Shown piece after piece: positions 13,698-36,283 of a stretch of 64,000 nt of DNA. Below the pieces are notes generated by a model. That model saw nothing but the letters and a program-made list of their open reading frames with translations, did not search any database and was not told where the DNA came from. Within the stretch, counting starts at the first letter, position 1. Each line of letters opens with the position of its first letter. Position numbers and translations under genes: made by a program. The DNA is from Anaerolineae bacterium (GTDB lineage: Bacteria; Chloroflexota; Anaerolineae; Epilineales; JAHCIE01), in assembly GCA_034431435.1 (NCBI GenBank), contig DAOUDG010000031.1:3905-67904 (forward strand), read 5' to 3'.

Positions 13698-14525
13698 ATG
13701 ACCGAGACAACCCCTCCCCCGATGACCGTGGCCGAGTTCGCCGCCGCACTCGACCAGCACATCCGCCCCGCCACCTTCCCCATCGCCATCAAGATGCTTG
13801 CCTCTGGCGAGCCGCTGCCGCCCAAGACGCGCCGCCCAACGGAGATGGGCTTCCAGACGGCCATCTGCCAGGGCTTCGCCCTCGCCCGCCGCTACGGCTG
13901 GCCCATCGCCATCGGCATCGAGGACCTGTCATGCCCGCTGGCGAAGGCCGTGTTCGGCTTCGCTCCCCTGGTGGACTTCTACGAGCAGGGGCACGCCTGC
14001 GCCGGGATGTACACGGCGACGCCCGCCGCCGGGGCGATGACCGAAGCGGCGGTGGACAAGTTCCCCTATCGTCGCTATGAGCATATCGTGGTCGCGCCCA
14101 TCCAGCGCACGAACTTCGACCCCGACGTGATTCTGGTCTACGGGACGCCGGGGCAGGTGATGCGGCTGGTGACGGCGGCGCTGTGGAAGACAGGCGGGCG
14201 GCTGGCGGCGTCCTTCTCAGGGCGCATCGACTGCGCGGATGCGGTCATCACCACCATGCAGACGCAGCAGCCCCAGGTCGTGTTACCGTGCTACGGCGAC
14301 CGCGTCTTCGCCCAGACCGAAGACCACGAGATGGCCTTCGCCCTACCTGTGGCCGCCATGGCCGACATTGTGGAGGGTCTAGAGGGAACGCACAAGGGCG
14401 GCATCCGCTACCCCATCCCCAGCTTCCTGCGCTACACCGGCCAGTACCCCGACCACTACAACGTCCTCAACGACAAGCTCGACGACGCCCGCGCCGAGCA
14501 TCCTCAATCGGCGCGTGAAATCTGA
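13698..14525 (+). CDS. DUF169 domain protein
   Basis: 275 aa; family-typical conserved Cys/His pattern (CQGFA...CP...). RBS AGGAGG upstream. Confidence 0.6.
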   Translation: MTETTPPPMTVAEFAAALDQHIRPATFPIAIKMLASGEPLPPKTRRPTEMGFQTAICQGFALARRYGWPIAIGIEDLSCPLAKAVFGFAPLVDFYEQGHACAGMYTATPAAGAMTEAAVDKFPYRRYEHIVVAPIQRTNFDPDVILVYGTPGQVMRLVTAALWKTGGRLAASFSGRIDCADAVITTMQTQQPQVVLPCYGDRVFAQTEDHEMAFALPVAAMADIVEGLEGTHKGGIRYPIPSFLRYTGQYPDHYNVLNDKLDDARAEHPQSAREI

Positions 14526-16900: not shown

Positions 16901-17136
16901 CTGATGCCTCCCCACTGACCGAAAGTATCACCAACGGCGCCGATTGTAGGGCCAGCAATCATACACCCAATGACATCGCCGTCAAGCAAGTTCAGCCTGC
17001 TGCTCGACCGTCCGACGCCACGCCCTAAAACTACTTGCATTCTGCAAGCAACTAGATTATAGATGTACCGGGCCGTGTCACACTACCCAGTTGGCGCGCT
17101 GCCGCGCCGATTCTGACGCCGGTCTTCCTCGCGCCC

Positions 17137-17379: not shown

Positions 17380-18240
17380 ATGCTCGCCTTCATCAAGGCC
17401 GTTCTATGGGCTATTTTCGCCCTCATTATCGCCGCGGCGGCTCTACTGGGTATCGGCCAGTGGACCTACAATCGACGGGTGAGCGCCGATGTCCGCGACT
17501 TCTTCGCCCGCCAATCCGGCGGCCAGGCGGCGGCCGACGTGGTCGTGAGTGAGGCCATGCTAGACAACCTGCCCGCGCCCATCCGCCGCTACCTGATCTA
17601 CAGTGGGGTCGTCGGTCAGCCCATCCCGCATACCGTGCGCCTCCACCAGGTAGGGCAGTTCCGCACCGCCCCCACCCAGCCCTGGCTGGACATCGCCGCC
17701 GACGAATACTACACCGTCGACGAGCCGGGCTTCATGTGGGACGCGACGTTCTACATGGCGGGTGTGCCCTTCATGCGCATCCGCGACAGGTACACCGATG
17801 GCGAGGGCAACATCCGCATGACGGTGTGGTCGCTGGTCCCGGCCATGGACAGGCGGAGCGCGGGGCTGAATCAGGGCGCGCTACTGCGCTACTTCAACGA
17901 GCTGGCGACGTGGTTCCCCGCCGCGCTGCTGAAGGACAACGTCACCTACCGCGCCATCGACGACGAGACTGCCGAGGTCATCTTCACCGATCGCGGGCAG
18001 AGCGTGTCCGCCATCCTCTACGTCGACGCCGAGGGTCGGCTGACCAACTTCATCGCCGATCGCTACCAGGATGGCGTCGACGAGTATCGGCGGTGGGCCA
18101 CGCCGCTAACGGTGTATGGCGAGCAGGCGGGACTGCGGCTGCCGCTACGCGGACGGGGGGTGTGGCTCAACCCCGAGGGCGATTTCGAATACATCAACCT
18201 CGAGATAACCGAGATTATCTACGACGACGCGAGGAGCTAA
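17380..18240 (+). CDS. N-terminally membrane-anchored hypothetical protein
   Basis: RBS GGAAGGGG. TM helix FIKAVLWAIFALIIAAAALLGI followed by a 250-aa soluble domain. No family recognised with confidence. Confidence 0.55.
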   Translation: MLAFIKAVLWAIFALIIAAAALLGIGQWTYNRRVSADVRDFFARQSGGQAAADVVVSEAMLDNLPAPIRRYLIYSGVVGQPIPHTVRLHQVGQFRTAPTQPWLDIAADEYYTVDEPGFMWDATFYMAGVPFMRIRDRYTDGEGNIRMTVWSLVPAMDRRSAGLNQGALLRYFNELATWFPAALLKDNVTYRAIDDETAEVIFTDRGQSVSAILYVDAEGRLTNFIADRYQDGVDEYRRWATPLTVYGEQAGLRLPLRGRGVWLNPEGDFEYINLEITEIIYDDARS

Positions 18241-18303
18241 CCTTGGCCGGGTGAAGGTTTCACCACGCAAGCGAAATGGGTCGATTTTGGAGCGCGCCAG
18301 TCA

Positions 18304-18332
18304 TTGACATGGCGCGCTTTGTGTCGTATACT
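18304..18332 (+). promoter_or_regulatory. Consensus sigma70/SigA-type promoter (TTGACA-17 nt-TATACT) in an AT-rich leader
   Basis: TTGACA at 18304..18309, 17-nt spacer, TATACT at 18327..18332, about 90 nt upstream of the regulator gene start at 18424. Short TGGTA/TACCA and TAAC repeats follow. Confidence 0.45.
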
Positions 18333-18423
18333 GCATCATGCCGCTTGTGGTAACGATAACATGGTAAGTGTACCAGTGTAGTCCTTTCATCGCCCTTCGC
18401 TTCGACGCCAGGACCTGGCCGCG

Positions 18424-20556
18424 ATGCCCACCATAAGCGATGTCGCGAAACGAGCCGGCGTAGCCCCCATCACCGTCTCGCGCGTTCTCAACGGCGCGGA
18501 GAACGTGAACCCCGCCACGCGGCACAAGGTCGAGCAGGCTATCCAGGACCTGGGGTATCTACCCAACCTGGCCGCCCGCAGCCTGCGCTCCGGCCAGACG
18601 CGCACCCTGGCCCTGCTAGTCCCCGATATCGGCAACCCCTTCTGGCCCATCGTCGCGCGCGGTATCGAAGACGCCGCGCAGAGCGAGGGCTACTCCATCT
18701 TCCTCTGCAACACCGACGAGAATCCCGCCAAGCAGTTGAACTATCTGCGCGCCGTGCTGCAGCAGCGCGTCGATGGCGTCATCCTTGCCCCCTGCGACCC
18801 CGACGCTCAGAGCCTCCAGCCGCTGCGCGAGCAAGGCACGCCCACTGTCATCATCGACCGCCGCGTCGATGGCTGGGATGTGGATTCCGTGGTCGCCGAC
18901 TCGGTGTCTGGCGCTCGCGCCCTGGTCCAGCACCTGCTAAACCTGGGGCATACCCGCATCGCCATCCTGACCGGCCCCCCCGGCGTGAGTACGGCTGAAG
19001 ACCGCGTGATCGGCTATCGGCTGGCGTTGCACGACGCGGGTCTTGAGGTCGATACGCGCCTCATTCGCTGGGGCGAGTATCGCATCGCCTCCGGCTCTCA
19101 GCAGGCTCAGGCCATTTTGGACGAGGGGCTGGCGCCCACCGCCATCTTCACCGCCAACCAGGCCATCGCCCTGGGCGCGCTGGATGCGCTGACGGCGCGT
19201 GGCCTGGACGTGCCACGCGATGTGGCCCTGGTCAGCTTCGACGACCTGCCCGACGTGGATCACCTGTTTCCATTCCTGACCGTCGTGGCGCAGTCGGCCT
19301 ACGACATGGGGCTGAATGCGGCGCAACTGCTGCTGAGCCGCATGAGCGCGGGTGTTGCCCTCGAGCCGCGCCACGTCGTGCTGCCTACGCGCCTGATCCT
19401 GCGCTACTCGTGCGGGCGCACACTCCGCACCAACGAGGCCGAGGGCTACCGTCTGGTGCGCCCGCGAGATGTCCCCGTGCAGTCGGTGCTGGTAAAGCCC
19501 CTGACGCCGGCTGAGCATGAACGAGCCGCCGCCCTGGTGCCCGAAACGGCGTGGTCCGGCCTGGCGCAGCGCAATGCCATGACCGATACGGATCGCTCCA
19601 GCGTCCGCCGCCTGCGTCGCGCGCTGCAACACCAGGCGACAGACCGCGTACCTTGCCTCGCCTACCCCATCGCCCAGCGCGCGCTGGTCGAATCCGTACT
19701 GGGCCGGAGCGCGCCGGCCGCCGTCAACGGCAGCGCGTCGTCGATTGCGCCCGGCGACCAGGTCGAGTTTGCCCAGCGCCTCGGCCTGGATGCGATAGGC
19801 TGCGACCTGACGTCTCACCTCGAGCCAGGCGCGACACGGGCCGATCTGGTCACACCACCGCGCCTGGCGGATCAACTCAGCCGGCTTGAGAACTATCTGC
19901 GCGCGGCACAACGTACCGAAGTGGGCGTTTTCGCCGAGCTTGGCGCGCATCTGCCCTCCGACGCAGGGGAGGCGCTGGCCGGACATGAGTGGCTCGACGT
20001 GGTATTGGCCCACCAGGAGAAGGTACTGCGTGCGGTGTGCGATCGCTTCGCCGCTGACCTCGTCTTTGTCATGCTCGACAGTACCGTCCTGGGACCGCAC
20101 CCACCAAGCATTCACGCCCCCTCTTTCGCCAACGAGATTCTGCCGCGCCTGCGCCGCCTGATTCAGCCGGCGCGCGAACACGGCCTGCCGGTCGGGCTGC
20201 GCGTGCGCGGGCCAATCGACGGCGACCTGGCGGCGGTGAGGGAAGCGGGCTTCGAGGTGCTTGCCCTCAGTGACGCCGACCTCGCGACATTGGCGGCCAT
20301 CAAGCGCACCTGGGGCGACACACTCACTCTGGTGGGCGGCGTGCCCACCGGCCTGCTGGTGACAGGATCGCGTGAGGCCATCGAGGCGCAGGTGCGTGAG
20401 GCCTGCCTGGCTCTGGGCGCTGGCGGCGGCTTCGTGCTCAGCCCATCCGACGGCGTGCCCGAAGCAGCGAGCGCCGACAATTTTGTGGCGCTCGTCCGCG
20501 CCGCGTGGCGCTGGGGGAGAGAGAGCAGCGACTCGGGGGTGGAGATTGGGAACTAG
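18424..20556 (+). CDS. LacI-family transcriptional regulator fused to a C-terminal UroD-like domain
   Basis: Single 710-aa ORF. Residues 1-~330: HTH (ISDVAKRAGVAPITVSRVLNG) plus periplasmic-binding-fold sugar sensor. Residues ~360-710: (beta/alpha)8 UroD/MtaA-like features (TDRVPCL..., ...FVLSPSDGVPE..., C-terminal FVALVRAAW). Confidence 0.7.
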   Translation: MPTISDVAKRAGVAPITVSRVLNGAENVNPATRHKVEQAIQDLGYLPNLAARSLRSGQTRTLALLVPDIGNPFWPIVARGIEDAAQSEGYSIFLCNTDENPAKQLNYLRAVLQQRVDGVILAPCDPDAQSLQPLREQGTPTVIIDRRVDGWDVDSVVADSVSGARALVQHLLNLGHTRIAILTGPPGVSTAEDRVIGYRLALHDAGLEVDTRLIRWGEYRIASGSQQAQAILDEGLAPTAIFTANQAIALGALDALTARGLDVPRDVALVSFDDLPDVDHLFPFLTVVAQSAYDMGLNAAQLLLSRMSAGVALEPRHVVLPTRLILRYSCGRTLRTNEAEGYRLVRPRDVPVQSVLVKPLTPAEHERAAALVPETAWSGLAQRNAMTDTDRSSVRRLRRALQHQATDRVPCLAYPIAQRALVESVLGRSAPAAVNGSASSIAPGDQVEFAQRLGLDAIGCDLTSHLEPGATRADLVTPPRLADQLSRLENYLRAAQRTEVGVFAELGAHLPSDAGEALAGHEWLDVVLAHQEKVLRAVCDRFAADLVFVMLDSTVLGPHPPSIHAPSFANEILPRLRRLIQPAREHGLPVGLRVRGPIDGDLAAVREAGFEVLALSDADLATLAAIKRTWGDTLTLVGGVPTGLLVTGSREAIEAQVREACLALGAGGGFVLSPSDGVPEAASADNFVALVRAAWRWGRESSDSGVEIGN

Positions 20557-20626
20557 CTCAATCTCATTCCCGCTCCCTCGGAACGGGTCAGAGGGTCAGG
20601 GTGGGGGTCTTCGCTCAGGAGGGGCT

Positions 20627-21559
20627 GTGAATTATCGAGCGTTGGGGAACACAGGCCTGGAGGTGTCGGCGCTGAGCTTTGGCGCATCGTCGTTAGGTAG
20701 CGTCTTCCGCGACATCGACGAAGCCGAGGGCATCCGCACTGTCCACGCCGCCATCGACCTGGGCATCAACCTCATCGATGTGTCGCCCTACTACGGTCTG
20801 ACGAAGGCCGAGACAGTGCTGGGCAAGGCGCTGCGCAGCCTACCGCGTGACCGCTACATCGTGGCGACGAAGGTCGGGCGCTACGGCGACGACGACTTCG
20901 ACTTCTCGGCGGCGCGAGTCACAGCCAGCGTTGATGAGAGCCTGGCGCGGTTGGGCAGCGACCATATCGACATCATCCAGTGCCACGATATCGAGTTCGG
21001 CTCGCTGGCCCAGGTGGTGGAGGAAACACTGCCCGCCCTGCGCCGCCTGCAAGAACAGGGCAAAGTGCGCCACGTAGGCGTGACCGGCCTGCCCCTGGGT
21101 ATCTTCACCTACGTCCTGGATCGCACACCCCTGGATACCATCCTGTCCTACTGCCATTATGAGTTGAATGACACCTCCCTGGCCGACATGCTGCCCTATC
21201 TCCAGGCTAAAGGCGTCGGCATCATCAACGCCTCCCCGTTGGGTATGGGGCTACTGACGGAGCGCGGCACGCCCACCTGGCACCCCGCGCCCGACGAGGT
21301 CAAGGCCGCCTGTGCCCAGGCGGCGGCCTACTGCCGGGCGCAGGGTGTCGACATTGCCCGGCTGGCCATCCAGTTTAGCGTCGCCAACCCCGATATCCCC
21401 ACCACGCTGGTGGGCACAGCCAGCCCGGCAAACCTGGAGAAGAACGTCCGCTGGAGCGAAGACCCGATGGACCTGGGCCTGCTGGCCGAGGTGCAGGCCA
21501 TTCTCGCGCCCATCCACAATCGTACCTGGCCCACCGGTCGCCCGGAGAACAACCCATGA
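20627..21559 (+). CDS. Aldo/keto reductase family oxidoreductase (L-galactose/L-fucose-dehydrogenase-like)
   Basis: GTG 20627 with GGAGG 5 nt upstream; start uncertain (the track ORF opens at 20372). AKR motifs ...[18 protein letters not shown]..., IDVSPYYG, catalytic-tetrad context. Confidence 0.75.
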
Positions 21560-23094
21560 AGGAGCCGCCTATGGGGGATGTGCTGGTTTCGATGGTCGGC
21601 ATCGACAAGAGCTTTCCGGGTGTCCACGCCCTGAATCAGTGCCAGTTCGAGATGCGCTCCGGCGAGGTTCACGCTCTCGTGGGCGAGAACGGCGCGGGCA
21701 AGTCGACACTGATGAAGATTCTGGCCGGCATCTATCGCAAGGATGCCGGGACCATCCTCTACAAGGGCAAGGAGGTGGACATCGCCTCGCCCCGTGCCGC
21801 CCAAGACCTGGGCATCAGCATGATTCACCAGGAACTCAACCTGATGAACCATCTGACGGTGGCCCAGAATATCTTTATCGGCCGCGAGCCGCGCCGCCTG
21901 GGTCTGCTGGACGACAAGGCCATCAACGCCCAGGCGCAGACCCTCTTCGAGACGATGCGTCTCAACCTGGACCCGCGCGTCAGGGTCGCCGATCTCACCG
22001 TCGCCAAGCAGCAGATGGTGGAAATCGCCAAGGCGCTGTCCTTCAACTCCGATGTGCTCATCATGGACGAGCCGACGGCCGCGCTCACCGATGTCGAGAT
22101 CGACGACCTGTTCCGCATCATCCGCGACCTGCGGGCGCGGGGCGTCGGCATCGTCCACATCTCCCACCGCCTGGAAGAGTTGAAGCAGATCTCCGACCGG
22201 GTCACTGTCATGCGCGATGGGCGCTACATCGACACCGTGCCAACCCAGGCGACGACGACCGACCAGATTATCAGCATGATGGTCGGCCGCACCATCTTCG
22301 AGGCAACGCCGGAGGTCCCCGAGCATCCCAGCGAGGAGATCGTCCTGGAAGCCCGCCACCTCAACCGTGGCCGCGCCCTCAAGGACGTCAGCTTTAGCCT
22401 CAAGAAGGGTGAGATTCTGGGCTTCGCGGGGCTGGTCGGCGCCGGCCGCACCGAGGTCGCCCGCGCCCTGTTCGGGGCGGACCCACTGGACTCGGGCGAG
22501 ATTCTCATCCACGGCCAGCGCGTCAATATCCACAGTCCGCAAGATGCCGTGCGTCACGGTATCGCCTACCTGTCGGAGGACCGCAAGCGTTATGGCCTCG
22601 CGCTCAAGATGGACGTCGAGACCAATGTGGCCCTGGCGACGATGCGCCAGTTCATGCGGCTGTTGGGCGTCATCGATACAGCCAAGACGCGCTCGACGGC
22701 CCAGCACTACGTGGATGCTCTCGCCATCAAGACGCCCAGCATCCAGCAAAAGGTAGCCAACCTGTCAGGCGGCAACCAGCAGAAGGTGATCATCGGCAAG
22801 TGGCTGACCGCCGACACCGAGATTCTAATCTTCGACGAGCCGACGCGCGGCATCGATGTCGGCGCCAAGAGCGAAATCTACCGCCTGCTAAACGACCTGG
22901 CCCAGCAGGGCAAGTCCATCATCATGATCTCGTCGGAGTTGCCTGAGATTCTGCGCATGAGCCACCGCATCATCGTGATGTGCGAGGGACGCATCACCGG
23001 CGAGCTTGCCAGCGCCGAAGCCACCCAAGAGAGCATCATGCGCTTCGCTACCCAGCGCGCCCCCGTCGCGGCCAACGAGCCAGCCACCGCCTAG
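21556..23094 (+). CDS. Sugar ABC transporter ATP-binding protein, CUT2 family (tandem ATPase domains)
   Basis: 512 aa with two Walker A/B sets ([12 protein letters not shown] ... second domain [16 protein letters not shown]); RbsA/MglA/RhaT-like. Confidence 0.9.
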
Positions 23095-23117
23095 TAGCCA
23101 AGGGAGACCCACCACCT

Positions 23118-24113
23118 ATGCAAGCTCAAGCGCCCGCCGTTCAATCCAAGTCGCTGTTCCGCTCGGACGCTATGCAACGCCTTCTGGCCTTCGGCGCGCT
23201 CATCGTGCTGTTCATCGTCTTCTCACTGTTGTCGCCCAACTTCCTCCAGTTCGACAACATCGTCGGTATCCTGCTGGCGACCTCGGTCAACGGCATCCTC
23301 GCCCTGGGCGTGACTTTCGTCATCATCAGCGGCGGCATCGACCTGTCGGTGGGCACGGTCATGACGCTATCGGCGGTCATGACCGGCGTCTTCATCACCA
23401 TGTGGGGATTGCCCATCCCCCTAGGCATCCTGGCCGGGCTGGGCACGGGCGCGTTGTGCGGCCTCGTCAACGGTACGGTCATCTCGCGCATGAAGATCCC
23501 GCCCTTCATCGCCACGCTGGGCATGTTCTACATCTCGCGCGGCCTGGCGCTCATCTTCTCCGGGCTGAAGCCCGTCTACTTCAACGACACGCCCATCTTC
23601 CGCGACCTCGCCATGGGTTCGGTGCTGGGTGCGATCGTCCCCGGCTTCGATATCCCCAACGCCGTGCTCATCATGTTCGGCGCGGCCCTGGTCGCTGCGT
23701 TCATCTTGAACCGCACCGTGTTGGGCCGCTACACCTTCGCCATCGGCAGCAATGAGGAAGCCACCCGCCTGTCGGGCGTCAACGTCGCCTTCTGGAAGAC
23801 GTCCATCTACGCCCTGTGTAGCGCGTTCGCGGGCCTGGGCGGCGTCGTCATCGCCTCGCGCCTCAACTCCGCTCAGCCATCCCTCGGCGCGGGCTACGAG
23901 TTGGACGCCATCGCCGCCGCCGTCATCGGCGGCACGTCGCTGAGCGGTGGTGAGGGAACAATCCTGGGTACGGTTATCGGCGCGTTCCTCATCAGCACCC
24001 TCACCAATGGCCTGCGCATCCTGTCGGTGCCCCAGGAATGGCAGATTGTCGTGACAGGCTGTATCCTGATCCTGGCCGTCTTCCTGGACATCCTCCGCCG
24101 CCGGCAGCGCTGA
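23118..24113 (+). CDS. Sugar ABC transporter permease, CUT2 family (RbsC-like)
   Basis: ATG 23118 after AGGGAG. ~10 TM; motif GGIDLSVGTVM. Confidence 0.85.
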   Translation: MQAQAPAVQSKSLFRSDAMQRLLAFGALIVLFIVFSLLSPNFLQFDNIVGILLATSVNGILALGVTFVIISGGIDLSVGTVMTLSAVMTGVFITMWGLPIPLGILAGLGTGALCGLVNGTVISRMKIPPFIATLGMFYISRGLALIFSGLKPVYFNDTPIFRDLAMGSVLGAIVPGFDIPNAVLIMFGAALVAAFILNRTVLGRYTFAIGSNEEATRLSGVNVAFWKTSIYALCSAFAGLGGVVIASRLNSAQPSLGAGYELDAIAAAVIGGTSLSGGEGTILGTVIGAFLISTLTNGLRILSVPQEWQIVVTGCILILAVFLDILRRRQR

Positions 24114-24207
24114 GCCTGGCGGGGCAGCCTTCCCACGTTTGTTAGCTCCATCGTGGAGCTTGACAATGTCCTCACCACTAGAACGAAGAGGAGAAAGGAC
24201 GCTCGGT

Positions 24208-25251
24208 ATGAAATCCCTAAGATTCGTTGTCGTTCTTGCCAGCCTGGTGGCCATCCTGGCCCTACTGGCGGCATGCACGCCAACACAGCAAGCCGCGGTC
24301 GAGAAGGCCGCGCCCACCGTCGCCGCCGCTGCCAAGGCCGCCGCGCCCACTGTGGCCGCCGCCGCTGCCGCCAAGACCGGCGACATGTACATCCCGGTCA
24401 TCTCGAAGGGCTTCCAGCACCAATTCTGGCAGGCGGTGAAGCAAGGCTCGGAGAAGGCGGCTAAGGACCTCGGCGTCCGCATCACCTTCGAAGGCCCAGA
24501 GAACGAGTCCCAGGTCGACAAGCAGATTGAGATGCTCCAGGCGGCCATCGACAAGAAGCCCGCCGCCATCTGCTTCGCCGCGCTGGACTCCAAGGCCGCC
24601 ATCCCGCTGTTGGAGAAGGCCAAGGCCGCCAACATTCCGGTGATCGGCTTCGACTCCGGCGTCGATAGCGACATCGTCAAGACGACGGCCGCCACGGACA
24701 ACATCGCCGCCGCCGCCGCCGCCGCCGACAAGATGGCCGCGCTGATCAATAACGAGGGCGAGATCGCGGTCATCGTCCACGACCAGACCAGCCGCACCGG
24801 CATCGACCGCCGCGACGGCTTCGTCAACCGCATCAAGGAGAAGTACCCCAACATCAAGATCGTCGACATCCAGTACGGCGGCGGCGACCAGCTCAAGTCT
24901 ACCGACCTGGCCAAGGCGATTCTCCAGGCCCGCCCCAACCTCAAGGGCTTCTTTGGCGCGAACGAGGGGTCCATCATCGGTGTCCTCAATGCCGTCAAGG
25001 AACTGAAGAGGGAAGGCAAGGTCGTGGTCATTGGCTACGACTCTGGCAAGCAGCAGATCGACGCCATCAAGGCAGGGACTGAGGCCGGCGCCATCACCCA
25101 GGACCCGATCGGCATCGGCTACAAGTGCGTCGAGGCCGCTGTCAAGGCCGTCAAGGGCGAAACACTGCCCAAGACCATCGACACTGGCTTCCACTGGTAC
25201 GACAAGACCAACGTCGACTCCGACCAGATCAAGCCACTGCTGTACAACTAG
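24208..25251 (+). CDS. Sugar ABC transporter substrate-binding lipoprotein, CUT2 family
   Basis: ATG 24208 after GAGGAGAAAGG. Lipobox LLAAC, Ala/Pro-rich linker, periplasmic-binding-protein type I fold (IGFDSG, VVVIGYDSG). Confidence 0.85.
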   Translation: MKSLRFVVVLASLVAILALLAACTPTQQAAVEKAAPTVAAAAKAAAPTVAAAAAAKTGDMYIPVISKGFQHQFWQAVKQGSEKAAKDLGVRITFEGPENESQVDKQIEMLQAAIDKKPAAICFAALDSKAAIPLLEKAKAANIPVIGFDSGVDSDIVKTTAATDNIAAAAAAADKMAALINNEGEIAVIVHDQTSRTGIDRRDGFVNRIKEKYPNIKIVDIQYGGGDQLKSTDLAKAILQARPNLKGFFGANEGSIIGVLNAVKELKREGKVVVIGYDSGKQQIDAIKAGTEAGAITQDPIGIGYKCVEAAVKAVKGETLPKTIDTGFHWYDKTNVDSDQIKPLLYN

Positions 25252-25338: not shown

Positions 25339-26172
25339 GTGCGCATCGACTCCCATCAGCATTTCTGGCGCTATAATCGAACCGAATATGACTGGATGCG
25401 TGACGCTCTGGCGAACCTGCAACGCGATTTCCTGCCGCCCGACCTGGCGCCTCTCCTGACCGCCACGGCTCTCGACGGTACGGTTGCTGTACAGGCCAGG
25501 CAAACCCTGGCCGAGACAGAGTGGTTGCTGGACCTATCGGATCGCTTCGACTTCATCAAGGGTGTTGTCGGCTGGGTCGACCTACGCTCGCCCCACGTCG
25601 ACGCGCAACTCGACCAGGTAGCGCGCCACCCCAAGCTGCGAGGAATACGCCACGTCGTCCACGACGAGCCAGACGACCGCTTCATGCTCGGCGCTGATTT
25701 CCTGGCCGGCCTCAACCAGTTGCGGGGCCTGGGACTGACCTACGATCTGCTATTGTTTCCCAGGCATCTGCCCATCGCCGTGGAAGTGGTGCGCCGCTTT
25801 CCCCACCAGCGTTTTGTGTTGGATCACATCGCCAAGCCGCCCATCAAGGACCACCGCATCGGCGCGTGGGAAAATGACTTGCGGGAACTGGCGGGCTTCG
25901 ACAACGTATTCTGCAAGGTGTCAGGCATGGTCACCGAGGCCGACTGGCAGCACTGGCAGCCGAGCGACTTCGAGCCGTACCTGGACATTGTATTCGATGC
26001 CTTTGGCGTCGAGCGGCTGATGTTTGGCTCTGACTGGCCCGTCTGCACGATCGCCGCCGACTATGAGCAGGTCGTTGGCCTGGTGGACAGCTACGTGGCT
26101 CGCCGCGCGCCCCACGCCCGCGATGCAATTTTCGGCGGCACAGCGGCGGCGGTCTATGGGTTGACCGAGTGA
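25339..26172 (+). CDS. Amidohydrolase_2 family metal-dependent hydrolase (L-fucono/L-rhamnono-1,5-lactonase-like)
   Basis: MRIDSHQHFW N-terminus, ...FVLDHIAKP..., ...MFGSDWP... typical of amidohydrolase_2 lactonases. Confidence 0.7.
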   Translation: MRIDSHQHFWRYNRTEYDWMRDALANLQRDFLPPDLAPLLTATALDGTVAVQARQTLAETEWLLDLSDRFDFIKGVVGWVDLRSPHVDAQLDQVARHPKLRGIRHVVHDEPDDRFMLGADFLAGLNQLRGLGLTYDLLLFPRHLPIAVEVVRRFPHQRFVLDHIAKPPIKDHRIGAWENDLRELAGFDNVFCKVSGMVTEADWQHWQPSDFEPYLDIVFDAFGVERLMFGSDWPVCTIAADYEQVVGLVDSYVARRAPHARDAIFGGTAAAVYGLTE

Positions 26173-26179
26173 GGATGCC

Positions 26180-27475
26180 ATGATCTCAATCGGCGTAGGC
26201 GAAGCGAAGCGTTTCCTGAGCGAGGCGGAGATTGAGCGCATCGTGGCCGAAGGGCTGGCCGCTCTGCCTTTGACCGGGCAGCGTGTGCTGGTCCTGATCC
26301 CTGACCATACCCGCACCATGCCGCTGCCCCTGTTCTTCCGCCTGCTGACACGGCATCTGGCGGGGCGAGCCAGCGCCATCGACTTCCTGGTCGCCCTGGG
26401 TACGCATCCGCCCCTGGACGACGCCAGTCTGCTCCGTCTCGTCGGCATCACCGCCGAGGAGAAAGCAACAACCTACCGCAACGTCCACGTCTACAACCAC
26501 GCCTGGGACGACCCCGCCGCGCTGACCACCCTGGGCGTCATCCCGGCCGCCGACATCGCCGCCCTCAGCCAGGGCATGCTCCGCCAGGAGGTGCCGGTAC
26601 GCCTCAACAAGCGGGTTCTCGACTACGACCACATCCTCATCTGCGGCCCGGTCTTTCCCCACGAGGTCGTTGGCTTCTCCGGCGGCAACAAGTACTTCTT
26701 CCCCGGCATTGCCGGGCCTGACATCATCGACTTCACCCACTGGCTCGGCGCGCTCATCACCTCCTACGACATCATTGGGACGCAGGACACCCCTGTGCGG
26801 CGCGTCATCGACCGCGCTGCATCCCTCATCCCCCGCCCGCGCCACGCCCTGTGTAGCGTCGTCAGCCACGACGGCGTGTCGGGCGTATTCTCCGGCACGC
26901 CCGAGGCGGCCTACGCCGCCGCCGCCGACCTGTCCGCCCAGGTCCACATCAAGTGGCTGGACCAGCCCTACCGCACCGTGCTATCCGTGCTGCCCAGCAT
27001 GTACGACGAGCTATGGGTGGGCGGCAAAGGCATGTACAAGCTGGAGCCTGTCGTCGCCGACGGCGGCGAGCTTATCATCTACGCGCCCCATATCAAGGAA
27101 ATCAGCGTGACCCACGGCGCGGCGATCCGAGCCGTCGGCTATCACGTGCGCGACTATTTCGTCAGGCAATGGGACCAGTTCCAGGGTTATCCCTGGGGCG
27201 TGCTGGCCCACTCGACCCACGTGCGCGGTGTAGGCACATACGAAAACGGCATCGAGCGCCCGCGCATCCAGGTCACCCTGGCGACGGGCATCCCCGAGGA
27301 CGAGTGCCGCGCCGTGAACCTGGGCTATCGTGACCCGGCATCTATCGACCCGTCAGCATGGGCAGGCCGCGAGGCTGAGGGCATCCTGGTCGTGCCGCGC
27401 GCGGGCGAGTATCTGTACCGACTCAAGGATAAAACCCATTCGACCGTCCCGTCCGAAATGAGGGTGAACCCATGA
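26180..27475 (+). CDS. LarA-family (DUF2088, lactate-racemase-like) protein
   Basis: 431 aa; [12 protein letters not shown] with the conserved Lys (cofactor-tethering position in LarA) and downstream His. ATGA-coupled to fucI. Confidence 0.65.
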
Positions 27476-29283
27476 CCCAGTCTGCCCCTATCCCGACCGC
27501 CTGGAGCATCGGCGGCCTGCCCAAAATTGGCATCCGCCCGGCCATCGACGGGCGACGGCGCGGCGTGCGCGAGTCCCTGGAAGCGCCAACGATGGGGATG
27601 GCCCGCGCTACGGCCGACTTCCTGAGCGCCCACCTGCGCTACCCGACGGGTCAGCCCGTCGAGTGTGTCATCGCCGACTCGTGCATTGGCGGCGTGGCGG
27701 AGGCGGCCCAGTGCGCCGAGAAGTTCGCCCGCGCCGGCGTGGGCCTGACCATTACCGTCACGCCCTGCTGGTGCTACGGCTCCGAGACGATGGACATGGA
27801 CCCACAGATGCCCACGGCGGTGTGGGGCTTCAACGGCACGGAGCGACCCGGTGCGGTCTATCTGGCCGCGGTGCTGGCCGGGCACAACCAGAAGGGGCTG
27901 CCCGCCTTCAGCATCTATGGCCACGACGTGCAGGACCTGGGCGACCCTGGCATTCCTGCCGACGTGCAGGAGAAGCTGCTGCGCTTCGCCCGCGCCGGGC
28001 TGGCCGTGGCGATGATGCGCGGCAAGTCGTACCTGTCCATCGGCGGCACATCGATGGGCATCGCCGGCTCCATCGTCGACCAGCCCTTCTTCGAGACGTA
28101 TCTCGGCATACGCGTCGAGGTCGTCGATATGAGCGAGCTGACGCGCCGCATCGATGAGAACCTCTTCGACGGGGCGGAGTATGAGCGCGCTCTGGCCTGG
28201 ACAAAGCAGAACTGCGCCGAGGGCCGCGAGTACAACCCGCCCGCCAACCAGCGCAGCCGCGAGCAGAAGGACCACGACTGGGAGACCTCGGTCAAGATGA
28301 CCCTCATCGCCCGCGACCTGATGGTCGGCAACCCGCGCCTGGCCGAGATGGGCTTCGGCGAGGAGGCGCTAGGCCGCAATGCTCTGGCAGGAGGCTTCCA
28401 GGGCCAGCGCCAGTGGACCGATCATTTCCCCAACGGCGACTTCATGGAGGCCATCCTAAACTCGTCCTTCGACTGGAACGGCATCCGCGCCCCCTATATC
28501 TTCGCCACCGAGAACGACAGTCTGAACGGCGCGACGATGCTCCTGGGGTATCTGCTGACCAACACGGCCCAGATTTTCGCCGACGTCCGCACCTTCTGGA
28601 GTCCCGAGGCGGTCAAGCGCGTGACTGGCTACACCCTGGATGGCATCGCCGCCCAGGGCATCATCCACCTCATCAACTCTGGCGCGGCTACCCTGGACGC
28701 CTCGGGCGAGCAGGAGCGCGACGGCGCGCCGGTGATGAAGCCCTACTGGGAGATTAGCCAGGCCGAGGCGGAGCGTTGTCTCAAGGCGACCACCTGGTAC
28801 CCGGCCATGACCGAGTACTTCCGGGGCGGCGGCTACTCGTCCCAGTTCCTGACGCGCGGCGAGATGCCAGTGACGATGGCTCGTATCAACATCATCAAGG
28901 GCCTGGGGCCGGTCCTTCAACTGGCCGAGGGCGTGACCGTCGACCTGCCACCCGACGTGCACCACACCATCAACGAGCGCACCAACCCAACGTGGCCGAC
29001 CCACTACTTCGTGCCACGCACCACGGGTGAGGGGCCATTCCGCGACGTGTACTCAGTCATGGCGGCCTGGGGCGCGAACCACGGCGCGATCAGCTACGGC
29101 CACATCGGGGCGGACCTGATCACGCTGGCGTCCATGCTGCGCATCCCGGTGACGATGCACAACGTCCCCAACCCGCGACTGTTCCGCCCCGCGACGTGGA
29201 ACCACTTCGGCGCGCTGGAACCGGTCGGCGCGGACTATCGCGCCTGCGCCACCTTCGGCCCGCTGTACGGCCGGTACGCGTAG
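27472..29283 (+). CDS. fucI: L-fucose isomerase (also D-arabinose isomerase family)
   Basis: 603 aa, collinear with E. coli FucI: [48 protein letters not shown]...[41 protein letters not shown]. Confidence 0.92.
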
Positions 29284-29418: not shown

Positions 29419-30909
29419 ATGAGCGAATCGACCGGTACAGCCTACCTGGCCTTTGACCTGGGCGCGGAGAGCGGCCGCGCTGTCCTCGGCTGGCTCGCTG
29501 ACGACGAGTTGCGCCTGGAAGAGGTGCATCGCTTCGCCAACGGCCCGGTGCGTGTAGGCGACAGCCTGCATTGGGACGTTCTGCGCCTGTGGAGCGAGGT
29601 GCAGCGCGGGCTGGCGCTGGCCGCGGCGCGGGCGGGCGACGGGCTGGCGAGCCTGGGTGTCGATACCTGGGGCGTCGACTTCGGCCTGCTGGCCGCCGAC
29701 GACAGCCTGCTTGGCAACCCACACCACTACCGCGACCCGCGTACCGACGGCATGCTGGAGGCCGCCTTCGCGGTGACGCCCCGCGATGAAATCTACCGCC
29801 AGACGGGCATCCAACTCATGCAACTGAACACCCTCTACCAGTTGCTGGCGATGGTCCGCGCCGACTCGCCCGCCCTGGCGAGCGCGCGTCACCTGCTGAT
29901 GATGCCCGACCTGCTCAACTTCTGGCTATCCGGCGTCAAGGCCAACGAGTTCACCGACGCCACCACGACACAATGCTATGACCCGCGGGGCGAAAGGTGG
30001 GCGACGGGGCTTCTGGAACGGCTCGGCATCCCAACCGGCCTGTTTGGCGACATCGTACCGCCGGGCACGGCCCTCGGCCCGCTGCGCCCCAGCGTTGCAG
30101 CCGATGCCCATTGCCCACCCGTACAGGTCATCGCCACGGCCAGCCATGACACCGCCTCGGCCGTGGCCGCCGTGCCCGCGGCGGCCACCGACTACGTGTA
30201 CATCAGCTCCGGCACGTGGTCCCTTATGGGCATCGAGTCGCCCGCGCCAGTCATCAGCGACGCCAGCCTGCGCGCCAACCTCACCAACGAGGGCGGCGTC
30301 GCTGGCACGATTCGCCTGCTCAAGAACATCATGGGCATGTGGCTCGTCCAGGAATGCCGCCGCGCCTGGGCCGCCGAGGGCAAGACCTACACCTACGATG
30401 CCCTGACCGCCCTGGCCGAGGCAGCGCCCGCCTTCGGGCCGCTCATCAACCCGTCCGACGCGCGCTATCTGGCCCCTGGCGAGATGCCCGCCCGCATCCA
30501 GGCCGCATGTCGAGAGAGCGATCAGTCTGTGCCCGACACGCCGGGCGCGCTGGTGCGCTGCGTTCTAGAGAGCCTGGCTCTGGAGTATCGCCGCGTCATC
30601 GACCTTATCGAGACGATCGTTAGCCGCCCCATGACTGCGGTCCACATCGTCGGCGGCGGCTCGCGTAATCGCCTGCTCAACCAGTTGACGGCCAACGCCA
30701 CCGGCCGCCCCGTCATCGCCGGCCCCGTCGAGGCGACGGCGACGGGCAACATCCTGGTACAGGCCATCGCGACTGGACGGCTGGCCTCGCTGCGCGAGGG
30801 CCGCGACCTGCTGCGCCGCATCGTCGAAACCACAACCTACGAGCCGCGGGACGGCGCGGCGTGGGATGCGGTGTATGAGCGCTATCTGGGGCTTGTCAGC
30901 GACCACTGA
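29419..30909 (+). CDS. FGGY-family ketose kinase, rhamnulokinase-like (RhaB-type)
   Basis: 496 aa, collinear with E. coli RhaB: FDLGA.SGR, VDTWGVDF, YRD.RT.G, NTLYQL, SSGTWSLMG, NEGG..G.IR.LKNIMG.WL.QE, IVGGGS.N.LLNQL.A.A.G.PV.AGPVEA...GN. Confidence 0.8.
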   Translation: MSESTGTAYLAFDLGAESGRAVLGWLADDELRLEEVHRFANGPVRVGDSLHWDVLRLWSEVQRGLALAAARAGDGLASLGVDTWGVDFGLLAADDSLLGNPHHYRDPRTDGMLEAAFAVTPRDEIYRQTGIQLMQLNTLYQLLAMVRADSPALASARHLLMMPDLLNFWLSGVKANEFTDATTTQCYDPRGERWATGLLERLGIPTGLFGDIVPPGTALGPLRPSVAADAHCPPVQVIATASHDTASAVAAVPAAATDYVYISSGTWSLMGIESPAPVISDASLRANLTNEGGVAGTIRLLKNIMGMWLVQECRRAWAAEGKTYTYDALTALAEAAPAFGPLINPSDARYLAPGEMPARIQAACRESDQSVPDTPGALVRCVLESLALEYRRVIDLIETIVSRPMTAVHIVGGGSRNRLLNQLTANATGRPVIAGPVEATATGNILVQAIATGRLASLREGRDLLRRIVETTTYEPRDGAAWDAVYERYLGLVSDH

Positions 30910-34071: not shown

Positions 34072-34086
34072 TGAGGTAACACATCC

Positions 34087-34887
34087 ATGATGCTTCCAGA
34101 TAGAGTCGCCATTGTCACCGGCGGCGCGCAGGGGTTGGGCGAAGCCCTCTGCCAGCGCCTGGCCCGCGAGGGCTGCCACGTTGTCGTGGCCGACATCAAC
34201 GCCGAGCAGGCCGCCGCCACTGCCGACGGCATTACCACCGCCGCGCGCGCCACCGGCTCCGACCGCCGCGCCATTGGCGTCAAGGTCGACGTCACGAGTG
34301 AAGAGCAGGTCGCCGCCCTGGTCGACCGCGCCGTCGCCGAGTTTGGCCGTCTCGATGTGCTGGTGTCCAATGCGGGCATCCTCATCGCCGAGGACATTAC
34401 CGACTTCCCCGCCGACAAGTGGCAGGCCGTGATGATGGTCAATCTCTACGGCTACTTCCTGTGTGCCAAGCACGCCGCGCGGGTGATGAAGCCGCAAGGT
34501 AAGGGCGTCATCATCCAGATCAACTCCAAGTCGGGCAAGAAGGGCAGCTTCAAGAACTCCGCCTACGCGGCCTCCAAGTTCGGCGGCATCGGCCTCACCC
34601 AGAGCATCGCCCTCGACCTGGCCGAGCATGGCGTGCGCGTCAACGCTGTCTGCCCCGGCAACCTGCTCGACTCGCCCTTGTGGGTCAACTCGCTTTACAA
34701 GCAGTATGCCCGGAAGTGGGGCATCACCGAGGCCGAGGTACGCCAGCGCTACATCGACCAGGTTCCCATGAAGCGCGGCTGCACCTACGACGACGTCTGC
34801 AATGTGGTCGCCTTCCTGGCCTCCGACCAGGCCAGCTACATGACCGGCCAGGCCATCAACGTGACCGGCGGCCAGGAGATGCGCTAA
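34087..34887 (+). CDS. Short-chain dehydrogenase, sorbitol-6-phosphate 2-dehydrogenase (SrlD)-like
   Basis: 266 aa; [67 protein letters not shown]. Close motif-by-motif resemblance to SrlD. Confidence 0.8.
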
Positions 34888-34897
34888 GCGAGACCGT

Positions 34898-36217: not shown

Positions 36218-36283
36218 TACGCGGGTGGTCACATGGCCGCCCGCGACCCCGATTGGCCCGTCGATCATTGCCCCAGAGGAACT

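What the first reader, a model, noticed from the sequence alone, without database searches (positions are those of the whole stretch)
18424..20556. LacI-family repressor fused in-frame to a ~350-aa UroD-like domain
Canonical LacI regulators end after the periplasmic-binding-fold sensor at ~330-340 aa. Here the ORF continues without a stop for another ~370 residues carrying uroporphyrinogen-decarboxylase-family hallmarks (TDRVPCLAYP..., FVMLDSTVLGP, FVLSPSDGVPE, C-terminal FVALVRAAW). A transcription factor with an appended enzyme-like barrel could be a one-component sensor that binds or converts an effector, or a moonlighting enzyme-regulator. I am not aware of a characterised LacI-UroD fusion.
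Basis: partly seen in the sequence, partly recalled or inferred. Interest (0 to 1): 0.7.

Follow-up and report, generated by a model that had tools for sequence, protein, structure and literature searches.

The report
LacI repressor with relic methyltransferase domain
This is a real, widely conserved sugar-operon repressor from Chloroflexota that carries a whole extra enzyme-like domain, derived from a vitamin-B12-dependent methyltransferase partner; in this genome that domain has lost its active-site residues but is still kept by selection.

Summary
Window 18424-20556 (+) is one 710-aa ORF: LacI HTH, periplasmic-binding-fold core, a ~65-aa disordered linker, and a full URO-D-superfamily (beta/alpha)8 barrel. 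It is not a frameshift. The identical protein occurs on at least 20 contigs, more than 120 non-redundant homologs share the architecture, and 47 fused copies were found in species-representative genomes, almost all Chloroflexota.

The domain is not a uroporphyrinogen decarboxylase. It descends from a highly conserved stand-alone URO-D/MtaA-like protein. In relatives that protein lies beside a corrinoid protein, within clusters of MtaA-like paralogs, RhaM and L-fucose isomerase.

The fusion is an autoregulated repressor. A 16-bp palindrome (consensus ATGAAATCGATTTCAT) lies upstream of nearly every fusion gene. The window has a single copy, at 18347-18362, just downstream of a strong promoter.

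In the window lineage no corrinoid or methyltransferase genes are present in the 64 kb. Only 8 of 52 catalytic-face invariant residues survive, and the pocket is less conserved than the scaffold. Domain dN/dS is still about 0.2.

Best reading: an L-fucose/6-deoxyhexose operon repressor whose third domain is a catalytically dead relic, kept for a structural, oligomerisation or accessory sensing role. The architecture is uncharacterised. It points to an undescribed corrinoid-dependent step in deoxy-sugar catabolism.

The parts
18304..18332 (+). sigma70-type promoter: -35 TTGACA (18304-18309), 17-nt spacer, -10 TATACT (18327-18332)
   Evidence: 11 of 12 consensus matches; it is the only such site in 18100-20800 (0.2 expected from shuffles). 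It lies in the GC-poor intergenic region.
18347..18362 (.). LacI-type operator GTGGTAACGATAACAT, a 16-bp palindrome with central CG, 15 bp downstream of the -10 box and 62 bp upstream of the ATG
   Evidence: Family consensus is ATGAAATCGATTTCAT, derived from sites upstream of fusion genes in 45+ loci. It scores 18.7 bits in the window against 10.8 for the next best, and 17.5 bits with a PWM that leaves out the window clade. The degenerate consensus with at most 1 mismatch matches once in 64 kb, with 0.07 expected.
18361..18376 (.). degenerate second operator position ATGGTAAGTGTACCAG, at the +14 offset where about 30 related loci carry a second strong site
   Evidence: it scores only 1.9 bits here, while relatives have tandem sites offset by exactly 14 bp. 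Inference only.
18424..20556 (+). 710-aa LacI / URO-D-like fusion gene (stop codon included)
18430..18567 (+). LacI-family helix-turn-helix DNA-binding domain (aa 3-48), followed by the hinge (aa ~49-59)
   Evidence: PF00356, 67 bits; nearly invariant across the family
18601..19413 (+). periplasmic-binding-protein-fold effector/dimerisation core (aa 60-330)
   Evidence: Peripla_BP_1/3/4; full-length matches to RbsR, CytR, PurR and CcpA models, all below their equivalog cutoffs
19414..19608 (+). low-confidence linker (aa 331-395) that contains the conserved motif LVKPL(S/T)PEE (window aa 355-364)
   Evidence: pLDDT below 50 for 316-362 and 376-386; V357 and K358 nearly invariant; dN/dS 0.32-0.53
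19609..20523 (+). URO-D/MtaA-superfamily (beta/alpha)8 barrel (aa 396-700) with degenerate catalytic-face residues
   Evidence: fold; loss of residues invariant in the stand-alone family; dN/dS 0.19-0.24
20627..21559 (+). aldo/keto reductase, first downstream gene (70-bp gap)
21556..25251 (+). ribose/rhamnose-type sugar ABC transporter: ATPase 21556-23094, permease 23118-24113, RhaS-like binding protein 24139-25251
25339..27475 (+). L-fucono-1,5-lactonase-like amidohydrolase (25339-26172) and LarA-family 'nickel-dependent putative hexonate epimerase'-like protein (26180-27475)
   Evidence: both below their equivalog cutoffs
27472..29283 (+). L-fucose isomerase FucI
   Evidence: NF008220, 1073 bits (cutoff 775); TIGR01089, 1045 bits (cutoff 850)
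29419..30909 (+). FGGY sugar kinase, rhamnulokinase-like
   Evidence: TIGR02627, 492 bits (cutoff 528)

Best explanation
The gene encodes an autoregulated LacI-family repressor of an L-fucose/6-deoxyhexose uptake and catabolism operon in an Anaerolineae (Chloroflexota) bacterium. Shown: the HTH and core are canonical. A family-specific 16-bp palindromic operator sits between the -10 box of a strong promoter and the start codon. The gene heads a tightly spaced run of same-strand genes (AKR, ABC transporter, fuconolactonase-like, LarA-like, FucI, FGGY kinase). Inferred: the repressor dimer on the operator blocks transcription, and a sugar or sugar-derived effector bound in the PBP-fold core releases it.

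The third domain is an evolutionary relic. It descends from a stand-alone URO-D/MtaA-superfamily protein, which I call the 'S' family. In related Chloroflexota the S gene lies directly after a methyltransferase-type corrinoid protein gene, within clusters of four or five MtaA-like paralogs plus RhaM, FucI and aldolase. In many relatives the fusion gene heads exactly such a cluster and keeps nearly all S-family catalytic-face residues. There it probably acts as an enzyme-derived sensor or a 'trigger enzyme'.

In the window lineage the corrinoid and methyltransferase genes are absent from the operon. Almost all catalytic-face residues are replaced, a conserved loop is deleted, and pocket positions evolve faster than the scaffold. 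The domain as a whole stays under purifying selection. I therefore take it to be a non-catalytic pseudoenzyme module. The most likely reason for keeping it is assembly: URO-D-superfamily proteins are homodimers, so it could link or stabilise LacI dimers in the way LacI's own C-terminal tetramerisation helix does. A less likely reason is binding of an accessory ligand or partner.
For: Architecture and reality of the fusion. Fold.

Repressor role: promoter. Operator unique in the window. Of 102 PWM sites of at least 13 bits in 1.17 Mb of related loci, 76 lie 33-166 bp upstream of a fusion gene, and loci with only a stand-alone copy have essentially none. Extra sites precede ABC-transporter genes and a Pterin_bind gene.

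Operon content. Conserved linkage to FucI, FGGY and DUF4432 at about 50% identity.

Origin of the domain: stand-alone proteins start exactly where the fused domain starts. S-S identity averages 72%, F-F 49%, and F-S reaches up to 76%. S lies next to a corrinoid protein in about 25 loci, and in L073 also beside Pterin_bind, RACo and MTHFR. Published URO-D-superfamily MT I enzymes are dimeric corrinoid methyltransferases, some without zinc (PMC13222342).

Degeneration in the window: 48 of 127 S-invariant columns and 8 of 52 catalytic-face columns are kept, the lowest of all 47 fused copies. HTDG becomes RVRG, HPxEPESN becomes ALSDADLA, and the PNN...HY...K loop is deleted. There are no corrinoid-protein, RhaM, RACo, Pterin_bind or other URO-D hits in the 64-kb window. 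In the window clade 41% of face positions are invariant against 57% of non-face positions (p=0.019), the reverse of the S family at 56% against 32%.

Still functional: dN/dS is 0.19-0.24 for the domain, 0.14-0.21 for the LacI module and 0.32-0.53 for the linker.
Against: There is no experimental data. The effector, DNA binding, oligomeric state and co-transcription are all inferred. The oligomerisation role rests on analogy (dimeric UroD and CdmB, the LacI tetramerisation helix) and on tandem operators in relatives. The window itself has only one strong operator, and no multimer model could be run.

The 'catalytic face' was defined from secondary structure of a predicted model (strand C-termini plus 8 residues), not from a ligand complex. 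Faster change at the face could reflect adaptation to a new ligand rather than relaxation. The window-clade comparison rests on about four independent lineages, and the comparison between operon types (p=0.0017) is not corrected for phylogeny.

Only 64 kb of the genome is visible, so corrinoid machinery could lie elsewhere. The biochemical function of the S family is itself unproven.
Confidence: 0.6

Rival explanations
1. Two-input one-component sensor. The C-terminal barrel of the window protein is still a ligand- or partner-binding sensor, retuned to a new signal such as a deoxy-sugar derivative, a corrinoid, or a corrinoid protein encoded elsewhere. It modulates the LacI module allosterically, in addition to the sugar bound in the PBP core.
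For: The domain is under purifying selection. Face residues differ systematically with operon content, which could reflect retuning. In six loci the corrinoid-protein gene directly follows the fusion gene, suggesting a direct partnership between the fused domain and a corrinoid protein in some lineages. Enzyme-derived sensor domains in regulators are an established concept (MocR/GabR; my knowledge).
Against: In the window clade, pocket-face positions are significantly less conserved than the scaffold, the opposite of the working S family. No corrinoid protein is encoded in the window. The long disordered linker gives no obvious allosteric path to the DNA-binding module.
Confidence: 0.22
2. Bifunctional 'trigger enzyme'. 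The fusion is both a repressor and an active URO-D-superfamily enzyme (a corrinoid-dependent methyltransferase or another activity) in this organism.
For: Fusions such as L057, L045, L018 and L034 keep 92-100% of the S-family catalytic-face invariant residues and head methyltransferase clusters, so this reading is credible for those members. PutA, BirA and NadR are precedents (my knowledge).
Against: The window copy keeps 8 of 52 face residues, lacks a conserved loop and lacks the HTDG and EPESN motifs. The MtaA zinc ligands and the HemE catalytic motifs are absent. No corrinoid protein or activase is nearby. The pocket is relaxed.
Confidence: 0.05
3. Evolutionary baggage. The domain has no function of its own in this lineage. 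It persists only because truncation would destabilise or mis-express the repressor, and it is slowly decaying.
For: This copy has the most degenerate catalytic face of all 47 fused copies, has lost the loop and has lost the associated pathway genes. The domain evolves about twice as fast as the LacI module in amino-acid terms (73% against 87% identity to L007).
Against: dN/dS of about 0.2 over 305 codons in three pairwise comparisons is clearly lower than in the linker. No stop codons or frameshifts occur in any member of the clade. The predicted fold is confident.
Confidence: 0.1
4. Artefact: a sequencing or assembly frameshift joined a normal LacI gene to a separate URO-D-like gene.
For: In some genomes a stand-alone URO-D-like gene does follow the regulator gene directly (L012, L041, L046), so adjacency exists in nature.
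Against: The identical fused protein is present in independent assemblies from four sources. There are 47 fused copies in different species and more than 120 non-redundant clusters. A conserved linker motif bridges the two modules.
Confidence: 0.01

Closest known systems
LacI/GalR-family repressors (E. coli LacI, PurR, RbsR, CytR; B. subtilis CcpA)
   Same: N-terminal HTH_LacI plus hinge, and a type-I periplasmic-binding-fold core. The operator is a 16-bp palindrome with a central CG that fits the family pattern TGnnAnCGnTnnCA. It sits in an autoregulatory position just downstream of the -10 box, at the head of a sugar operon.
   Different: It carries a ~65-aa linker and a complete ~305-aa (beta/alpha)8 barrel after the core, where canonical members end or, in LacI, carry only a short tetramerisation helix. 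All specific NCBIfam equivalogs score far below cutoff (best is RbsR, 223 bits against 382). Relatives have tandem operators offset by 14 bp.
URO-D-superfamily corrinoid methyltransferases (MtaA/MtbA/CmuA; MT I enzymes CdmB, MtvB, OdmB, VdmB, MtoB)
   Different: The window domain scores 18.6-33 bits against cutoffs of 235-244. It lacks the MtaA HxC...C zinc ligands, having RVR...D. No corrinoid protein is nearby, and it has lost most residues that are invariant in its own sister family.
Uroporphyrinogen decarboxylase HemE/UROD (EC 4.1.1.37)
   Different: Only the last ~108 columns align by sequence. The N-terminal MRQAGR substrate-binding motif is absent, and the 'NLGHG' histidine position is Asp here and Thr in the sister family. 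There is no haem-biosynthesis context.
MocR/GabR/PdxR regulators (GntR-type HTH fused to a fold-type-I aminotransferase-like domain) and 'trigger enzymes' PutA, BirA, NadR
   Same: The same design principle: a DNA-binding module fused to a whole enzyme-derived domain, which serves as a sensor or retains activity. Both families show a spectrum from catalytically competent to degenerate domains. This comparison comes from my knowledge, not from a test here.
   Different: The DNA-binding family and the enzyme fold are both unrelated. Here the regulator already has its own complete effector-binding core, so the enzyme-like domain is a third, additional module.

Membership tests
LacI/GalR family of transcriptional repressors | N-terminal HTH_LacI DNA-binding domain | tested here: met
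   PF00356, aa 3-48, 67 bits against a cutoff of 27; nearly invariant across 43 homologs
LacI/GalR family of transcriptional repressors | Periplasmic-binding-protein type-I effector/dimerisation core | tested here: met
   Peripla_BP_1 130 bits, Peripla_BP_3 116 bits, Peripla_BP_4 92 bits; end-to-end alignment to the RbsR, PurR and CcpA models
LacI/GalR family of transcriptional repressors | Palindromic operator with central CG near the regulated promoter | tested here: met
   Site at 18347-18362, unique in the window (0.07 expected); conserved upstream of fusion genes, with 76 of 102 strong sites in 1.17 Mb at that position
LacI/GalR family of transcriptional repressors | Effector-dependent release from DNA | not testable with these tools
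   Needs EMSA or in vivo reporter assays with candidate sugars
URO-D superfamily fold (Pfam PF01208 clan) | Profile match above the gathering score, and a (beta/alpha)8 barrel superposable on UroD/MtaA | tested here: met
Uroporphyrinogen decarboxylase (HemE/UROD) | Conserved substrate-binding and catalytic residues (N-terminal RQAGR arginines, active-site Asp/Tyr, C-terminal GHG histidine; residue roles from my knowledge of the human and E. coli enzymes) | tested here: not met
   There is no RQAGR-like motif in aa 385-460. The N-terminal two-thirds cannot be aligned to HemE. The His of NLGHGI aligns with D676. No HemE NCBIfam hit appears among the listed families.
MtaA/CmuA-type methylcobamide methyltransferases | Family HMM above cutoff, and zinc ligands HxC...C | tested here: not met
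   PRK06252 33.2 bits against 244; TIGR01463 18.6 against 235.4. The HxC position reads RVR and the second Cys position reads D.
MtaA/CmuA-type methylcobamide methyltransferases | Encoded with a cognate corrinoid protein | tested here: not met
   No corrinoid protein, RACo or Pterin_bind hit in the 64-kb window by tblastn (E<1e-6). The feature is met for many relatives of the fusion and for the stand-alone S family.
Stand-alone Chloroflexota/Latescibacterota URO-D-like 'S' family (uncharacterised; defined here) | Retention of the 127 columns invariant in 23 stand-alone members, especially the 52 on the barrel's catalytic face | tested here: not met
   The window keeps 48 of 127 overall and 8 of 52 on the face. 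Other fusions keep up to 100%. It is homologous at 35% identity over the full length.
Trigger enzymes / bifunctional enzyme-regulators (PutA, BirA, NadR type) | The same polypeptide is catalytically active and binds DNA | not testable with these tools
   Sequence evidence argues against catalysis for this copy. Enzymology is required.

The most novel reading that the evidence does not exclude
The LacI/URO-D fusion family marks an undescribed pathway in Chloroflexota, and sporadically in Latescibacterota. In this pathway O-methylated 6-deoxyhexoses, for example methyl-fucose or methyl-rhamnose from plant, algal or bacterial glycans, are demethylated anaerobically by a corrinoid protein plus several URO-D/MtaA-like methyltransferases, and the products are fed to FucI, kinase and aldolase. 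The regulator's third domain would be a paralog of the substrate:corrinoid methyltransferase. In intact members it would sense the methylated sugar, or the state of the corrinoid protein, or still catalyse methyl transfer. That would make it a new class of three-module one-component regulator, of which the window's copy is a degenerate descendant.
Probability: 0.3. Interest if true: 0.8.

Novelty: new variant of a known kind. Interest (0 to 1): 0.62.

Why it matters
LacI-family repressors are textbook two-module proteins. A conserved lineage with a complete enzyme-derived third module extends the known architectures of this family. It also gives a natural series, from apparently intact to clearly dead enzyme domains, for studying how enzymes become regulatory or structural modules.

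The family also acts as a genomic signpost. With its well-defined operator, it heads clusters that combine a corrinoid protein and multiple MtaA-like methyltransferases with fucose/rhamnose catabolic genes. I found no description of this association. If these clusters demethylate methylated deoxy-sugars, that would be a new substrate class for corrinoid-dependent methyltransferases. It would also be a new route of glycan carbon and methyl-group flow in anoxic sediments, sludge and soils, where Anaerolineae are abundant.

For this particular window the practical result is more modest: a confident annotation of the regulator, its operator and its fucose-type regulon.

Tried and rejected
1. Frameshift or assembly artefact: rejected.

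2. Genuine uroporphyrinogen decarboxylase: rejected. Motifs are absent, only the C-terminal third aligns, and there is no haem context.

3. MtaA-type zinc methyltransferase: rejected for this copy and for the S family, which has HTD...T instead of HxC...C. Other paralogs in the related clusters do have HxC.

5. hhalign of the domain profile against HemE covered only 108 columns, so a full residue-by-residue check of UroD catalytic residues from sequence was not possible.

6. Rfam scan for cobalamin riboswitches or other RNAs in the window and four representative loci: no hits.

7. Literature searches found nothing relevant. They covered LacI plus uroporphyrinogen decarboxylase fusions, corrinoid methyltransferases acting on methylated sugars, URO-D with fucose or rhamnose, and LacI trigger enzymes or pseudoenzymes.

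8. Inverted-repeat search of the intergenic region with default seeds missed the operator and returned only a GC-rich pair overlapping the start codon. The operator was found by cross-locus comparison.

9. orf448 at the operon end could not be assigned; only a weak PHP-domain resemblance was found.

10. No correlation was seen between having one or two operators and how intact the domain is (inspection).

11. Multimer prediction and 3-D mapping of conservation could not be done.
Full report
1. THE OBSERVATION

Window 18424-20556 (+) is a single 710-aa ORF with an ATG start and no internal stop.

Pfam finds a LacI HTH (aa 3-48), three overlapping periplasmic-binding-protein models (aa 60-330) and URO-D PF01208 (aa 563-694). 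The URO-D hit scores 40.9 bits against a gathering score of 23.9, but matches only profile positions 212-343 of 346. NCBIfam aligns aa 1-330 end to end with RbsR, CytR, PurR and CcpA models, all far below their equivalog cutoffs. It gives only weak hits (18-33 bits) of the C-terminus to MtaA/CmuA corrinoid methyltransferase models.

The full-length model shows two folded modules joined by a low-confidence segment, roughly aa 316-390.

The appended module is a ~65-aa linker plus a ~305-aa barrel.

2. NOT AN ARTEFACT

The 100%-identical protein is recorded on at least 20 contigs from ENA, JGI, NCBI and Logan assemblies. More than 120 non-redundant clusters at 47-89% identity cover 97-100% of the query and carry the same precomputed Pfam set.

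A scan of one genome per species with a profile of the C-terminal domain returned 67 loci. Nearly all are Chloroflexota MAGs (Anaerolineae/Anaerolineales, Caldilineales, Ardenticatenia, Thermoflexales), with a few Latescibacterota and one Acidobacteriota MAG.

I reconstructed the enclosing ORFs. Of the 70 complete copies then aligned, 47 are fused to a LacI module and 23 are stand-alone proteins of about 360 aa that begin exactly where the fused domain begins. The closest named relative of the window is 'Anaerolineae bacterium TGS_CHL1' (L006; 93% identity in the LacI module, 86% in the domain).

3. IT IS A REPRESSOR WITH A DEFINED OPERATOR

The intergenic region upstream holds a near-consensus promoter, TTGACA-17-TATACT, at 18304-18332.

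I compared the 250 nt upstream of 49 fusion genes. This revealed a shared 16-bp palindrome with a central CG, consensus ATGAAATCGATTTCAT.

A PWM scan of 1.17 Mb of related loci found 102 sites of at least 13 bits. Of these, 76 lie 33-166 bp upstream of a fusion gene. Loci holding only the stand-alone protein have essentially none. The remaining sites include ones ahead of ABC-transporter genes and, in L014, ahead of a Pterin_bind methyltransferase gene. About 30 loci carry two sites offset by exactly 14 bp.

In the window there is one strong site, GTGGTAACGATAACAT, at 18347-18362.
- It scores 18.7 bits, or 17.5 bits with a PWM that omits the window clade; the next best site in 64 kb scores about 10.7 bits.
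- The degenerate consensus with at most one mismatch matches once, with 0.07 expected.
- It lies 15 bp downstream of the -10 box, a typical repressor position.
- The +14 position (18361-18376) is degenerate here.

4. WHAT IT CONTROLS

Downstream, with gaps of -4 to 135 bp, lie:
- an aldo/keto reductase;
- a ribose/rhamnose-type ABC transporter (ATPase, permease, RhaS-like binding protein);
- a fuconolactonase-like amidohydrolase;
- a LarA-family 'putative hexonate epimerase'-like protein;
- a bona fide L-fucose isomerase (1073 bits against a cutoff of 775);
- a rhamnulokinase-like FGGY kinase.

Homologs at only about 50% identity are likewise followed by a sugar ABC transporter, an FGGY kinase, DUF4432 and a FucI-family gene. 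The regulon is a 6-deoxyhexose (L-fucose/L-rhamnose type) utilisation system.

5. WHERE THE THIRD DOMAIN COMES FROM

The stand-alone proteins ('S' family) are strikingly conserved. Mean pairwise identity is 72% (minimum 61%). The fused domains average 49% (minimum 28%). Fused-versus-stand-alone identity reaches 76%. Databases call them 'uroporphyrinogen decarboxylase family protein'.

Their genomic context is informative.
- In L073 the S gene lies between a B12-binding corrinoid protein and a Pterin_bind methyltransferase. DUF1638, a RACo-type reductive activator and MTHFR follow, and three more URO-D paralogs precede it.
- In L076, L077 and L078 the order is: aldolase II, LacI/URO-D fusion, URO-D (356 aa), RhaM, URO-D (389 aa), creatininase-family protein, ABC transporter, corrinoid protein, S, FucI.
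- tblastn mapping across all loci shows the block 'fusion, URO-D 356/369, RhaM, URO-D 389, creatininase (URO-D 420)', complete or partial, in 20 fusion loci. It shows the pair 'corrinoid protein then S' in about 25 loci, and 'fusion then corrinoid protein' directly in six (L020, L022, L023, L028, L030, L037).
- The corrinoid protein matches the methyltransferase-cognate corrinoid family.
- Paralogs 369, 389 and 420 have MtaA-like HxC motifs, whereas S has HTDG.

A recent structural paper confirms that UroD-superfamily MT I enzymes (CdmB, MtvB, OdmB, VdmB, MtoB) are homodimeric TIM-barrel substrate:corrinoid methyltransferases, and that some lack zinc (PMC13222342).

So the fused domain is a paralog of a presumptive corrinoid-dependent methyltransferase, not of HemE. 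Consistent with this:
- only the last ~108 columns align to HemE;
- the HemE 'NLGHGI' histidine aligns with Asp676;
- there is no counterpart of the HemE MRQAGR motif.

6. THE WINDOW'S COPY IS DEGENERATE BUT MAINTAINED

The 23 stand-alone proteins share 127 invariant columns. Fused domains keep 69% of these on average, and the window keeps 48.

I defined the barrel's catalytic face as the C-terminal ends of the eight predicted strands plus the following eight residues. On this face 52 of the invariant columns lie. Retention there ranges from 100% (L057), 96% (L045) and 94% (L018) down to 15% (8 of 52) in the window, which is the lowest value of all.

Motif by motif, the window differs from the S family as follows:
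- HTDG becomes RVRG;
- HPxEPESN becomes ALSDADLA;
- NDDI becomes DSTV;
- TSFFDS becomes GAHLPS;
- GSSTSI becomes SPSDGV;
- a conserved ~20-residue loop (PNN...HY...G..K) is deleted.

Fusions heading methyltransferase clusters keep more of the face than those heading sugar-only operons (0.67 against 0.44; Mann-Whitney p = 0.0017, not corrected for phylogeny).

The 64-kb window has no corrinoid protein, RhaM, RACo, Pterin_bind or second URO-D gene.

Even so, Nei-Gojobori dN/dS between the window and its relatives L007 and L006 is 0.19-0.24 for the domain. That is close to the LacI module (0.14-0.21) and well below the linker (0.32-0.53).

Within the window's clade, catalytic-face positions are less often invariant than the rest of the barrel (41% against 57%; Fisher p = 0.019). 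In the S family the face is the more conserved part (56% against 32%). The pocket has lost its specific constraint, but the scaffold has not.

7. MECHANISM: WHAT IS SHOWN AND WHAT IS INFERRED

Shown:
- a canonical LacI module;
- a family-specific operator between the promoter and the start codon;
- a conserved 6-deoxyhexose regulon;
- descent of the third domain from a protein associated with a corrinoid protein;
- loss of catalytic-face residues in this lineage, with the domain still maintained.

Inferred:
- the repressor occludes its own promoter and is released by a fucose/rhamnose-type effector bound in the PBP core;
- the third domain in this copy is a non-catalytic module kept for assembly or stability, and less probably for accessory sensing.

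The assembly idea rests on three points. URO-D-superfamily proteins are homodimers. LacI itself uses a C-terminal extension to pair dimers. Most relatives have two adjacent operators.

For well-preserved family members, a sensor or 'trigger enzyme' role linked to the corrinoid system is more likely.

8. COMPARISON WITH KNOWN SYSTEMS, AND NOVELTY

The protein is a member of the LacI/GalR family: HTH, core and operator were all tested and met. It is a structural member of the URO-D superfamily.

It fails the tested defining features of HemE, of MtaA/CmuA methyltransferases, and of its own stand-alone sister family.

The nearest conceptual analogues are the MocR/GabR regulators (an HTH fused to an aminotransferase-like domain) and the trigger enzymes PutA, BirA and NadR. 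These share the design principle but none of the folds.

The architecture is visible in databases as a Pfam domain combination, annotated only as 'LacI family transcriptional regulator' or 'substrate-binding domain-containing protein'. I found no paper on it, or on corrinoid methyltransferases in deoxy-sugar operons. I class it as a new variant of a known kind.

9. VERDICT

It identifies an uncharacterised three-module LacI lineage with a clean operator, and through it an undescribed association of corrinoid methyltransferase systems with fucose/rhamnose catabolism.

The window's own copy is the most degenerate member and is unlikely to be an enzyme. Interest is 0.62.

The most novel reading not excluded is a corrinoid-dependent demethylation pathway for methylated 6-deoxyhexoses, sensed by an enzyme-derived regulator domain. 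I give it about 0.3 probability; it would merit about 0.8 if true.

Noticed in passing
L076 1-13000; also L008, L012, L018, L025, L027, L032, L034, L035, L044, L045, L057, L073: A recurrent Chloroflexota gene cluster combines 4-5 distinct URO-D/MtaA-like paralogs (about 356/369, 389, 420 and 360 aa), an L-rhamnose-mutarotase-family protein, a creatininase-family protein, a methyltransferase-type corrinoid protein, an ABC transporter, L-fucose isomerase and aldolase II. In L073 it also includes Pterin_bind, DUF1638, RACo and MTHFR. It is a candidate corrinoid-dependent demethylation route for methylated 6-deoxyhexoses, and I found no description of it in the literature held.
   Followed up: partly
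upstream of fusion genes in about 30 loci, e.g. L011 407-436, L034 8749-8778, L067 6339-6368; window 18347-18376: Two copies of the 16-bp operator are offset by exactly 14 bp (a 2-bp overlap), forming a ~30-bp composite site. That is an unusual spacing for LacI-family dimers. In the window the second copy is degenerate.
   Followed up: partly
window 19486-19515 (aa 355-364): A short conserved motif, LVKPL(S/T)PEE, sits inside the otherwise variable, low-confidence linker between the LacI core and the barrel. V357 and K358 are nearly invariant in 43 homologs. It may be a docking or hinge element.
   Followed up: no
window 30989-32335; L014 4755-6095; L034 1819-3156: An unannotated 448-aa ORF at the end of the fucose gene run shows only a weak PHP-domain resemblance. 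It has 58%-identical homologs next to a Pterin_bind methyltransferase gene in L014 and L034. In L014 that gene pair is preceded by the same operator pair.
   Followed up: partly
window 32332-40494: The same-strand gene run continues with an ADH-like protein, an SDR, a 2-oxoacid dehydrogenase E2, a fused E1 alpha/beta (833 aa) and a second FGGY kinase. E2 and E1 genes also lie just upstream of the methyltransferase cluster in L073.
   Followed up: no
window 26180-27475: A LarA-family protein sits inside the fucose operon between the fuconolactonase-like gene and fucI. Its best match is 'nickel-dependent putative hexonate epimerase' (174 bits, below the cutoff of 500). This suggests an epimerisation step on a fuconate-type intermediate.
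   Followed up: no
L022 8813-15470 (also L020, L023, L028, L030, L037): In this variant locus type the fusion gene is followed directly by the corrinoid-protein gene and then by a 1177-aa GH13-like protein, with no stand-alone S gene detected. The fused domain may itself be the corrinoid protein's partner there.
   Followed up: partly
window 17380-18240: A DUF6544/DUF6920 protein gene lies immediately upstream on the same strand, and a molybdopterin oxidoreductase gene (14504-16915, minus strand) lies before it. Neither is conserved next to the fusion in distant relatives, so they are probably unrelated.
   Followed up: no
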